64,000 nucleotides of DNA from Pyrinomonadaceae bacterium. Lineage in GTDB: Bacteria > Acidobacteriota > Blastocatellia > Pyrinomonadales > Pyrinomonadaceae. A program made the translations under genes and the position numbers. How positions within the stretch are numbered: position 1 is the first letter of the stretch; each line of letters begins with the position of its first letter. Positions 21,489-21,662 of this stretch are shown here, piece by piece. Under the pieces are notes generated by a model. That model ran no database searches. It saw nothing but the letters and a program-made list of their open reading frames with translations, and was not told the origin of the DNA. The stretch is taken from positions 192,013 through 256,012 of the forward strand of contig DATFGP010000022.1 of assembly GCA_035249365.1 (NCBI GenBank), in the 5' to 3' direction.

Positions 21489-21518
21489 TTGACAGTCGCC
21501 GTCTGACGCGAGTATAAG
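21489..21518 (+). promoter_or_regulatory. Sigma-70-like promoter (TTGACA-18 nt-TATAAG)
   Basis: ttgaca at 21489-21494 and tataag at 21513-21518. It faces the YitJ-like gene. Confidence 0.55.
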
Positions 21519-21524
21519 CGCGTT

Positions 21525-21662
21525 GAGCAAAGACGTGGTGAGTTAAGGCGACTTGCGGCCACGTAAAATAAACAGCTAAACAGCACGGCTCTCCAAGAGA
21601 GCATCTCCAACTTCAAGACGCTTTTTTGAAGTCCCGCGTTGTTTGGCGCGGGAGTTTTTTTT
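21525..21662 (+). promoter_or_regulatory. Structured 5' leader ending in an intrinsic terminator (candidate attenuator/riboswitch, class unassigned)
   Basis: Helices gacgtgg...ccacgt, gctctc-caa-gagagc and cttcaa...ttgaag, then tcccgcg-(8 nt)-cgcggga followed by T8 (21632-21662). It lies about 95 nt upstream of a methionine-cycle gene. Confidence 0.45.

What the first reader, a model, noticed from the sequence alone, without database searches (positions are those of the whole stretch)
21489..21662. Promoter, structured leader and intrinsic terminator upstream of the YitJ-like methionine-cycle gene: candidate riboswitch/attenuator of unassigned class
TTGACA-18 nt-TATAAG is followed by about 110 nt containing three short helices, then a clean terminator (tcccgcg...cgcggga + T8). 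All of this precedes the start codon at 21757.

In Bacillus subtilis the homologous fusion gene yitJ is controlled by a SAM-I (S-box) riboswitch. This leader does not show the SAM-I core I remember (no GAGGGA or GGUGCYAA elements), and I could not match SAM-II, SAM-V or SAH motifs from memory. It could therefore be a different SAM/SAH/THF-responsive class, a protein-dependent attenuator, or an independent small RNA. An A-family hairpin lies between the terminator and the ATG.
Basis: partly seen in the sequence, partly recalled or inferred. Interest (0 to 1): 0.55.

Follow-up and report, generated by a model that had tools for sequence, protein, structure and literature searches.

The report
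SAM-II riboswitch before methionine-cycle gene
The leader is an ordinary SAM-II (S-adenosylmethionine) riboswitch with its own promoter and terminator in front of a methionine-cycle gene of a soil acidobacterium, not a new class; the only mildly new points are the host phylum and a clearly readable antiterminator.

Summary

The interpretation "unassigned class" is wrong. Rfam places 21525-21600 in RF00521 (SAM_alpha, SAM-II) at 41.2 bits against a gathering score of 36. It is the only Rfam hit in the 64 kb window. SAM-I and SAM-V do not match.

The host is a Pyrinomonadaceae bacterium (Acidobacteriota). The same aptamer lies directly upstream of the orthologous YitJ-like gene in 61 of 80 related genomes. 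It also precedes metH in some soil metagenome contigs.

P1 and the P2a/P2b pseudoknot are 97% paired across these sequences, with compensatory changes. The terminator stem covaries strongly.

The 3' pseudoknot strand (GCUAAACAGC, 21575-21584, plus CGG) is complementary to the terminator's 5' arm and loop (21634-21647). This loop sequence is conserved across species. Without ligand the predicted fold is this antiterminator. With the strand sequestered, the terminator forms.

Best reading: a SAM-sensing transcriptional OFF switch. It is a new member of a known kind, and interest is low. The long hairpin before the ATG is a genome-wide heptamer-repeat element and is not part of the switch.

The parts
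21489..21494 (+). -35 box TTGACA of the leader promoter
   Evidence: Read from the sequence. CTTGACA is conserved in all 31 core-clade orthologous leaders and in most distant ones.
21513..21518 (+). -10 box TATAAG, 18 nt after the -35 box. The inferred transcription start is about 21524-21527, 7-10 nt before P1.
   Evidence: TATAAG (or TATAAC/TATAAA) sits at a fixed distance, ending 15 nt before P1, in 31 of 31 core-clade leaders. The layout matches Corbino 2005 (PMC1273637), which places the promoter a few nucleotides before P1. The start site is inferred, not mapped.
21534..21584 (+). SAM-II aptamer, an H-type pseudoknot. P1 is 21534-21539 with 21558-21563. L1 is 21540-21546 (GAGUUAA). P2a is G21548-C21584 and C21549-G21583. 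P2b is U21553-A21579, U21554-A21578, G21555-C21576 and C21556-G21575, with U21577 unpaired (my mapping to metX U44, which pairs with the adenine of SAM). L3 is the A-rich stretch 21564-21574.
   Evidence: Rfam RF00521 scores 41.2 bits against a gathering score of 36, E = 7.2e-6, full model, at 21525-21600. My own covariance model scores 84.7 bits at 21528-21589. Pair counts across related leaders: 97.3% paired, 5 pairs with compensatory change, P2b invariant.
21575..21588 (+). Switching strand GCUAAACAGC-A-CGG. It is either the 3' strand of pseudoknot P2b/P2a (SAM-bound) or the 5' strand of the antiterminator (no SAM).
   Evidence: The duplex with 21634-21647 is -19.8 kcal/mol. It forms in the unconstrained minimum-energy fold of 21525-21662. 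Across 57 leaders it is 87.6% paired, against 30-38% when partners are slid by 1-3 columns.
21588..21602 (+). Small linker hairpin GCUCUC-CAA-GAGAGC, in a variable region.
   Evidence: The sequence is not conserved in relatives, although they carry some hairpin at this place.
21610..21632 (+). Linker hairpin ACUUCAA / UUGAAGU, immediately 5' of the terminator.
   Evidence: ACUUC/GAAGU is conserved in the core clade; 71.8% of cells are paired over the whole alignment, against 29-41% when slid.
21634..21647 (+). 3' strand of the antiterminator, CCG-C-GUUGUUUGGC. It covers the terminator's 5' arm, its loop and the first bases of its 3' arm.
   Evidence: The loop sequence GYUGUUURGC is conserved while the stem below it covaries. 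In 114 metagenome leaders, 71% have a complement of at least 9/10 to the tail, against 3.8% in shuffles.
21632..21662 (+). Intrinsic terminator: stem-loop 21632-21653 (9 pairs, -14.4 kcal/mol), then G and U8 (21655-21662).
   Evidence: Covariation across 57 leaders: 96.1% paired, 7 of 9 pairs with compensatory change.
21757..23652 (+). Regulated gene: bifunctional homocysteine S-methyltransferase / methylenetetrahydrofolate reductase (YitJ-like), 631 aa.
   Evidence: ORF. Pfam PF02574 (E = 1.1e-75) and PF02219 (E = 6.6e-31). It is 93-96% identical to Pyrinomonadaceae proteins.

Best explanation
This is a SAM-II class riboswitch (Rfam RF00521) that works as a transcriptional OFF switch for a YitJ-like methionine-cycle gene in a Pyrinomonadaceae (Acidobacteriota) genome.

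Transcription starts about 8-10 nt before P1, from the TTGACA-18-TATAAG promoter. The aptamer (21534-21584) folds into P1 plus the P2a/P2b pseudoknot.

When SAM is abundant it binds in the P2b triplex and locks the 3' strand GCUAAACAGC (21575-21584) into the pseudoknot. When the polymerase reaches 21632-21662, the terminator hairpin forms and transcription stops at the U8 tract.

When SAM is scarce, the same strand plus CGG (21586-21588) is free. It pairs with CCG-C-GUUGUUUGGC (21634-21647) as soon as that sequence emerges. This occupies the terminator's 5' arm and loop, so the polymerase reads through into the gene.

Shown by computation: family membership, conservation, covariation, and the mutually exclusive pairings.
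Inferred: SAM binding, the transcription start site, and the direction of regulation.
For: **Family membership**
- RF00521 is the only Rfam gathering-level hit in the window (41.2 bits against 36, E = 7.2e-6, full length).
- no SAM-I or SAM-V match at E <= 10.
- the same family scores 49.1 bits in Pyrinomonas methylaliphatogenes K22 and 41.7 bits in another relative.

**Conservation and covariation**
- the aptamer lies directly upstream of the ortholog, once per locus, in 61 of 80 related genomes.
- P1, P2a and P2b are 97.3% paired, with 5 pairs showing compensatory change, against 18-51% when partners are slid.
- the terminator is 96.1% paired, with 7 of 9 pairs compensatory.
- the promoter is conserved at a fixed distance from P1.

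**Antiterminator**
- the unconstrained fold of 21525-21662 is the antiterminator state (-46.3 kcal/mol).
- blocking the tail gives the terminator state (-42.6 kcal/mol).
- when the transcript is cut just before the terminator's 3' arm, the antiterminator is the minimum-energy fold in 47 of 57 leaders. The mean tail:terminator duplex is -18.1 kcal/mol, against -10.5 for the reversed-sequence control.
- in 114 independent metagenome leaders, 71% have a complement of at least 9/10 to the tail, against 3.8% in shuffles.

**Gene association**
- the same aptamer, with a terminator carrying the same loop motif, also precedes metH. The antiterminator extension changes together with the terminator stem (CGG/CCG, GAC/GUC, AGAGUUU/AAACUCU).

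**Literature**
- PMC1273637: SAM-II typically has a promoter a few nucleotides before P1 and a terminator after P2.
- PMC2258182 and PMC6061858: most SAM-II switches are transcriptional.
Against: - No ligand binding, start-site mapping or termination assay is available.
- L1 reads GAGUU where the Rfam consensus has the highly conserved GAUUU. By my mapping this puts G at the metX U10 position, which contacts U44 in the SAM-bound structure (PMC3303485). Binding strength and selectivity are therefore untested for this variant.
- P2a is only 2 bp here. It is 5 bp in about 60% of SAM-II members (PMC6061858).
- At full length the terminator is the thermodynamic minimum in most relatives; only 12 of 57 favour the antiterminator. 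The switch must therefore be kinetic, which is assumed here, not shown.
- The ten core antiterminator pairs hardly vary, so they offer conservation but little true covariation.
- The sequences are phylogenetically related, so the statistics overstate independence.
- In the Thermoanaerobaculia relatives this antiterminator is not evident.
Confidence: 0.85

Rival explanations
1. The aptamer is SAM-II, but its main output is not SAM-controlled termination. Either the terminator is constitutive and the roughly 135-nt terminated leader acts as a small RNA, or SAM binding mainly changes mRNA stability or translation, as reported for S. meliloti metA.
For: PMC9373788 (read) reports SAM-II leaders that yield stable small RNAs, a terminator for which no SAM-II-driven antiterminator could be predicted, and stabilisation of the mRNA under high SAM. 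In one search the terminator is the full-length minimum-energy fold in most relatives.
Against: Here the antiterminator is explicit. It uses exactly the pseudoknot's 3' strand and is conserved well above controls. The start codon lies 173 nt from the aptamer, behind a terminator and a -50 kcal/mol repeat hairpin, and no ribosome-binding site overlaps the pseudoknot.
Confidence: 0.08
2. The aptamer has the SAM-II fold but a shifted ligand preference (for example SAH or another SAM-related compound), because of the lineage-specific G in L1 and the short P2a.
For:: most Pyrinomonadaceae copies have GAGUU where the consensus has GAUUU. By my mapping of the numbering in PMC3303485, this position contacts U44, which pairs with the ligand's adenine.
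Against: The residues reported to sense the sulfonium and the adenine are all invariant: the equivalents of U11, U21 and U44, the UUGC strand, and GCUAAA. Close relatives with GAUUU (L005, L007, L015) sit before the same gene with the same expression platform, so the two versions appear interchangeable. The gene context, yitJ-like and metH, fits SAM feedback.
Confidence: 0.04
3. One reading: a riboswitch or attenuator of a so far unassigned class, or a protein-dependent attenuator.
For: None was found beyond the absence of SAM-I motifs.
Against: There is a full-length match above the gathering score to RF00521. The SAM-II pseudoknot covaries, and the conserved core nucleotides are shared with the family consensus.
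Confidence: 0.02

Closest known systems
SAM-II riboswitch (metA element, Rfam RF00521 SAM_alpha) of alpha-proteobacteria, e.g. Agrobacterium tumefaciens metA and Sinorhizobium meliloti metZ
   Same: - P1 plus an H-type P2a/P2b pseudoknot.
- The same conserved core: UGA.UU in L1, CUUGC, an A-rich L3, and GCUAAA.
- A promoter a few nucleotides before P1.
- An intrinsic terminator between the pseudoknot and the ORF.
- Control of methionine/SAM genes, with a predicted OFF switch.
   Different: - The host is Acidobacteriota (Pyrinomonadaceae). The papers read describe alpha-, some beta/gamma-proteobacteria and Bacteroidetes (PMC1273637, PMC2258182), and no paper in the library links SAM-II with Acidobacteria.
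- L1 has G at the first U of the UUU run.
- P2a is 2 bp instead of the common 5 bp.
- The regulated gene is a YitJ-like HMT-MTHFR fusion.
metX SAM-II riboswitch from the Sargasso Sea metagenome (the crystallised example; Gilbert et al. 2008, as described in PMC3303485 and PMC6061858)
   Same: The same ligand-pocket architecture is inferred: SAM stacked in P2b next to an unpaired U in GC-U-AA. P2a is also short, at 2 bp.
   Different: metX is a translational switch whose 3' strand contains the Shine-Dalgarno sequence. Here the 3' strand is the antiterminator strand, and the output is transcription termination.
SAM-I (S-box) riboswitch upstream of Bacillus subtilis yitJ
   Same: The same regulated gene type and the same logic: SAM-induced transcription termination with a competing antiterminator.
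   Different: [quoted passage not shown] There is no Rfam match here at E <= 10.
SAM-V riboswitch (RF01826)
   Same: Per PMC6061858, SAM-V has a similar pseudoknot/triplex binding site and a 2-bp P2a.
   Different: SAM-V is translational and found in marine bacteria. The model gives no match here at E <= 10.

Membership tests
SAM-II riboswitch (Rfam RF00521, SAM_alpha) | Covariance-model score at or above the curated gathering score | tested here: met
   41.2 bits against a gathering score of 36, E = 7.2e-6 for the whole window, model positions 1-79 of 79. Relatives L007 and L029 score 49.1 and 41.7 bits.
SAM-II riboswitch (Rfam RF00521, SAM_alpha) | P1 hairpin plus an H-type pseudoknot (P2a/P2b) between the P1 loop and the 3' tail, supported by covariation | tested here: met
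   On 62 aligned leaders, 97.3% of cells are paired. Compensatory changes occur at 2 P1 pairs and 3 P2a pairs. Controls with partners slid by 1-3 columns give 18-51%. The alignment was fitted to P1 only; P2 was not part of the model.
SAM-II riboswitch (Rfam RF00521, SAM_alpha) | Invariant ligand-pocket strands: 5'-UUGC-3' pairing with 5'-GC(U)AA-3', with the unpaired U that pairs with the adenine of SAM | tested here: met
   All four P2b pairs are invariant in 58 of 58 distinct sequences. In the window, GCUAAA lies at 21575-21580 and CUUGC at 21552-21556. The roles of the residues are taken from PMC3303485.
SAM-II riboswitch (Rfam RF00521, SAM_alpha) | U-rich L1 strand (consensus GAUUU) forming the major-groove triplex | tested here: inconclusive
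   The window and most Pyrinomonadaceae read GAGUU. The two 3' U residues are kept and the first U is replaced by G. Relatives L005, L007 and L015 and the other clades keep GAUUU. The effect on binding is unknown.
SAM-II riboswitch (Rfam RF00521, SAM_alpha) | Location in 5' leaders of methionine/SAM metabolism genes | tested here: met
   The downstream gene has homocysteine S-methyltransferase and MTHFR domains. The same aptamer precedes the ortholog in 61 genomes and in 97 of 120 metagenome contigs, and precedes metH in 6 contigs.
SAM-II riboswitch (Rfam RF00521, SAM_alpha) | Selective binding of SAM, with discrimination against SAH | not testable with these tools
   This needs in-line probing, ITC or equilibrium dialysis on RNA 21525-21590.
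Riboswitch expression platform with an intrinsic terminator (transcription attenuation) | G+C-rich hairpin followed by a U tract, and an alternative pairing that shares nucleotides with the ligand-stabilised aptamer element | tested here: met
   Terminator at 21632-21662, with covariation. The antiterminator uses 21575-21588, the same bases as the P2 3' strand. Ligand dependence is not testable here.
SAM-I / S-box (RF00162) | Match to the covariance model | tested here: not met
   No match at E <= 10 in 21440-21770 with permissive filters, and none at gathering level in the window.
SAM-V (RF01826) and 'SAM-II long loop' (RF01726) | Match to the covariance model at the gathering score | tested here: not met
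   SAM-V is absent at E <= 10. RF01726 reaches 13.4 bits against a gathering score of 44.

The most novel reading that the evidence does not exclude
The Pyrinomonadaceae copies form a distinct SAM-II subtype, with G at the L1 position that by my mapping contacts the ligand-pairing U, and a 2-bp P2a. In this reading the subtype has an altered ligand preference or affinity, for example responding to SAH or to the SAM/SAH ratio. It would then be a functional variant, not merely a new host for SAM-II.
Probability: 0.05. Interest if true: 0.55.

Novelty: new member of a known kind. Interest (0 to 1): 0.2.

Why it matters
Mainly for annotation. The finding removes a supposed 'unassigned riboswitch class' and shows that SAM-II, described for proteobacteria and Bacteroidetes in the papers read, also controls methionine-cycle genes (yitJ-like and metH) across Pyrinomonadaceae, other Blastocatellia and Thermoanaerobaculia, which are abundant soil Acidobacteriota.

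There is a modest mechanistic point. Transcriptional SAM-II switches are said to be the majority, yet they are little studied experimentally (PMC6061858, PMC9373788). These leaders offer an unusually readable case, in which the pseudoknot's 3' strand pairs with a conserved terminator loop. That pairing could be tested directly, and a cultured relative, Pyrinomonas methylaliphatogenes K22, carries the same element.

Tried and rejected
- **Other SAM classes or other cis-regulatory families.** A permissive Rfam scan of 21440-21770 gave only RF00521 as a credible hit. The microRNA-precursor 'hits' at 21657-21751 are far below their gathering scores and only reflect the long repeat hairpin.
- **A second aptamer copy in the window or in the flanks of 80 related loci.** My covariance model found exactly one hit per locus, always before the ortholog.
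- **The antiterminator as the full-length thermodynamic ground state in all relatives.** This holds for the window but for only 12 of 57 leaders. I therefore rely on a co-transcriptional (kinetic) argument.
- **MAFFT alignment for covariation in the Thermoanaerobaculia clade.** P1 was out of register, so I replaced it with a model-based alignment.
- **The hairpin at 21663-21748 as part of the switch.** Rejected: the same heptamer-repeat palindromes fill many other intergenic spacers in the window.
- **A different leader RNA in Gemmatimonadota orthologs.** The upstream sequence there looks like coding sequence (the end of a metH-like gene), so there is no leader to compare.
- **Literature on SAM-II in Acidobacteria.** Nothing was found in the library. 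The phylum-distribution figure of McCown 2017 could not be read.
- **Exact metX residue numbering.** I could not retrieve the sequence. The mapping of the L1 G to U10 is my inference.

Full report
**1. The observation**

- TTGACA lies at 21489-21494. An 18-nt spacer follows, then TATAAG at 21513-21518.
- The leader runs from 21519 to 21631.
- The stem-loop UCCCGCGUU-GUUU-GGCGCGGGA is at 21632-21653, followed by G and eight U (21655-21662).
- The ATG of a 631-aa ORF is at 21757.
- The three short helices are CGUGGU/GCCACG (21534-21539 with 21558-21563), GCUCUC-CAA-GAGAGC (21588-21602), and ACUUCAA/UUGAAGU (21610-21616 with 21626-21632).

The ORF product carries Pfam S-methyl_trans and MTHFR domains, so 'YitJ-like' is correct.

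The pattern scanner finds the terminator but not the promoter, because it requires T at the end of the -10 hexamer. In 1 kb it finds 3 terminator-like sites against 1.8 expected. The patterns alone are therefore not significant, and the case rests on comparison with relatives.

**2. What it is**

A scan of the whole window against Rfam at gathering thresholds gives one hit. RF00521 (SAM_alpha, the SAM-II riboswitch aptamer) matches 21525-21600 on the + strand, at 41.2 bits against a gathering score of 36, E = 7.2e-6, over model positions 1-79 of 79.

A permissive scan of 21440-21770 gave no SAM-I or SAM-V match at E <= 10. 'SAM-II long loop' (RF01726) reached only 13.4 bits against 44.

The motifs are present: CGUGGUGA-UU, CUUGC, an A-rich L3, and GCUAAA.

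**3. Host and relatives**

The protein is 93-96% identical to proteins of Pyrinomonadaceae MAGs (Acidobacteriota, Blastocatellia).

I fetched 80 orthologous loci from species-representative genomes. A simple regular expression found the aptamer core upstream of the ortholog in about 55 of them.

A covariance model built from 48 of those sequences found 62 hits in the window plus the 80 loci. There was one hit per locus, always directly upstream of the ortholog, and only one in the window.
- The hits cover Pyrinomonadaceae and Pyrinomonas methylaliphatogenes K22 (Rfam score 49.1 bits).
- They also cover a divergent clade that includes a MAG labelled Chloracidobacterium sp. UBA7656 and other Blastocatellia.
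- Four Thermoanaerobaculia loci gave weak model hits; three more carry the core motif by pattern. The two of these given to Rfam (L060, L061) did not reach its gathering score.

In Gemmatimonadota loci the sequence immediately upstream of the ortholog looks like coding sequence, so there is no leader there.

**4. Aptamer structure**

I followed the SAM-II architecture in the literature: P1; L1 lying in the major groove of P2b; SAM stacked between U21 and G22 and pairing with the unpaired U44; and P2a beyond it (PMC3303485, PMC6061858). On that basis I assigned:
- P1: 21534-21539 with 21558-21563
- P2b: U21553-A21579, U21554-A21578, G21555-C21576, C21556-G21575, with U21577 unpaired
- P2a: C21549-G21583 and G21548-C21584

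On the 62-sequence alignment, 97.3% of cells form standard pairs. Five pairs show changes on both sides: two in P1 (CG to GC swaps in Thermoanaerobaculia) and three in P2a (for example C-G to U-A and G-C to A-U). No shuffle out of 500 reached the observed values, and sliding the partners by 1-3 columns gave 18-51% pairing. P2b, the ligand pocket, is invariant.

Two features depart from the typical family member.
- L1 reads GAGUU where the consensus has GAUUU. By my mapping this puts G at the metX U10 position.
- P2a is only 2 bp in the window. It is 5 bp in about 60% of SAM-II members and 2 bp in metX (PMC6061858).

Relatives with GAUUU (L005, L007, L015) have the same gene and the same expression platform, so the two versions look interchangeable.

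**5. Promoter**

In all 31 closest leaders, CTTGACA, a 17-18-nt spacer and TATAAG (rarely TATAAC or TATAAA) are conserved. The -10 box ends 15 nt before P1. More distant leaders keep CTTGACA with other A/T-rich -10 boxes.

This puts the start site at about 21524-21527. It matches the description of the family, in which a near-consensus promoter lies a few nucleotides before P1 (PMC1273637).

**6. Terminator and antiterminator**

The terminator stem is 96.1% paired across 57 leaders, with compensatory changes at 7 of 9 pairs.

The loop and the top of the stem (GYUGUUURGC) are conserved while the stem below covaries. This sequence is the complement of the aptamer's 3' strand GCUAAACAGC.
- In the window, GCUAAACAGC-A-CGG (21575-21588) pairs with CCG-C-GUUGUUUGGC (21634-21647) at -19.8 kcal/mol. 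The terminator hairpin itself is -14.4 kcal/mol.
- Folding 21525-21662 without constraints gives P1 plus this long-range helix (-46.3 kcal/mol) and no terminator.
- Forbidding the ten tail bases from pairing, which mimics their capture in the pseudoknot, gives the terminator (-42.6 kcal/mol).
- Across the 57 leaders the antiterminator pairs are 87.6% paired, against 30-38% for slid controls.
- When the transcript is cut just before the terminator's 3' arm, the antiterminator is the minimum-energy fold in 47 of 57 leaders.
- The mean tail:terminator duplex energy is -18.1 kcal/mol, against -10.5 for the reversed terminator sequence.
- At full length only 12 of 57 leaders favour the antiterminator, so the decision must be kinetic.
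- The ten core pairs are nearly invariant, because the 5' strand is fixed by the aptamer. They offer conservation, not covariation.

**7. Independent sample and regulon**

A scan of metagenome contigs with the acidobacterial aptamer pattern returned 120 loci.
- In 97 of them the next ORF is YitJ-like.
- In six (L093, L100, L130, L140, L177, L200) the downstream homolog is a different gene, about 34% identical over the N-terminal domain.
- In L093 that gene has the full MetH domain set: S-methyl_trans, Pterin_bind, two B12-binding domains and Met_synt_B12.

These metH leaders carry the same aptamer and a terminator with the same loop motif. The bases that extend the antiterminator beyond the core change together with the terminator stem: CGG with CCG in the window's clade, GAC with GUC in another, and AGAGUUU with AAACUCU in some metH leaders.

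In 114 distinct metagenome leaders, 71% have an ungapped complement of at least 9/10 to the tail within 150 nt, against 3.8% in shuffles. For a perfect 10/10 match the figures are 52% against 0.13%.

**8. Mechanism**

The best-supported reading is a SAM-sensing transcriptional OFF switch.
- SAM locks 21575-21584 into P2.
- The 47-nt linker, with its hairpins, gives time for binding.
- If the tail is locked, the terminator forms and transcription ends at the U8 tract.
- If the tail is free, it captures 21634-21647 and the polymerase reads through into the methionine-cycle gene.

This is the standard logic proposed for SAM-II with terminators (PMC1273637, PMC2258182). SAM binding, the start site and SAM-dependent termination are inferred, not shown.

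**9. Rivals**

- A constitutive terminator with a small-RNA or stability role, as discussed for S. meliloti (PMC9373788), is possible as an additional function. It does not explain the conserved loop complementarity.
- Altered ligand specificity caused by the L1 G is unlikely, because the residues reported to read the sulfonium and the adenine are invariant and U-containing relatives look equivalent.
- A new class or a protein-dependent attenuator is contradicted.

**10. Novelty**

This is a member of a known, curated family, detectable at Rfam's own threshold. The layout of promoter, aptamer and terminator is the textbook one.

What may not have been described:
- The host phylum. The papers read place SAM-II in alpha-, some beta/gamma-proteobacteria and Bacteroidetes, and no paper in the library mentions SAM-II together with Acidobacteria.
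- The GAGUU variant with a short P2a.
- The explicit antiterminator embedded in the terminator loop.

I rate it a new member of a known kind, with low interest.

**11. Not part of the switch**

The hairpin at 21663-21748 (-50.2 kcal/mol) is one copy of a family of palindromes built from tandem heptamers. These fill many intergenic spacers in the window.

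Noticed in passing
window 3802-3922, 6672-6744, 9096-9178, 11027-11111, 13721-13803, 21277-21335, 21663-21748, 28990-29425, 36661-36760, 37305-37415, 45791-45885, 48058-48178, 54459-54547: There are many long intergenic palindromes whose arms are 4-7 tandem heptamers. Families include AGTGACA/AGTGACG, GTCAGTT/CAACGGA, GGGAAAG, GAGGGAT and GCTAACA. 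They fill the spacers between genes and often end within 0-20 nt of a start or stop codon. They resemble the heptamer STRR repeats of cyanobacteria (from memory, not tested). Their function is unknown.
   Followed up: partly
L002, L004, L006, L008, L009, L011-L014, L016-L028, L036, L038, L045, L070, L074: between the terminator and the ATG of the ortholog: Orthologous leaders in other Pyrinomonadaceae carry a heptamer-repeat hairpin at the same place, between the riboswitch terminator and the start codon. It is built from a different heptamer in nearly every species (GATTTTG, CAGTAGT, GTGAATC, TGCCGAT, GGTCTTT and others). The position is conserved but the sequence is not.
   Followed up: no
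window 21569-21584: There is an exact 8-nt direct repeat, TAAACAGC TAAACAGC. The end of L3 and the pseudoknot tail are identical, so the terminator loop could in principle pair with either copy. The repeat is not conserved in relatives, where L3 varies.
   Followed up: no
L054 2869-2950, L055 2848-2930, L058 2326-2410, L065 2783-2865: In a divergent clade of the aptamer (CGUGGCGAUUUCCGGC...AAUUGCUCCAC), the sequence CCGGAAAUC just 3' of the aptamer is perfectly complementary to L1 plus the linker (GAUUUCCGG). This suggests a different alternative pairing, an anti-aptamer helix, from the one in the window.
   Followed up: no
L100, L130, L140, L200 (metagenome contigs): In these contigs the same SAM-II aptamer and terminator are followed first by an unrelated ORF of 144-249 aa and only then by the metH-like gene. 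L093 and L177 have metH directly after the leader.
   Followed up: partly
L060, L061, L063, L064, L066, L067, L069 (Thermoanaerobaculia): These loci carry SAM-II-like aptamers (GCUGGA.UGAUUUGGGGCCGCUUGCAACCAGC...GCUAAA) before the ortholog. L060 and L061, the two given to Rfam, did not reach its gathering score, so standard annotation would probably miss them. Their terminator loops carry CCGGCG, which is complementary to GCCGG after the tail, instead of the GUUGUUUGGC motif.
   Followed up: partly
window 40001-44000: G+C content drops to 0.479, against 0.56-0.63 elsewhere in the window. This may be a foreign or otherwise atypical segment.
   Followed up: no
L059, L071-L073, L075, L077, L078, L080 (Gemmatimonadota and others): The sequence directly upstream of the YitJ-like ortholog looks like the end of a coding region. 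By eye its translation (...EAKYYAVRG) resembles the C-terminus of a MetH activation domain. The ortholog may therefore sit inside an operon without a leader of its own.
   Followed up: no
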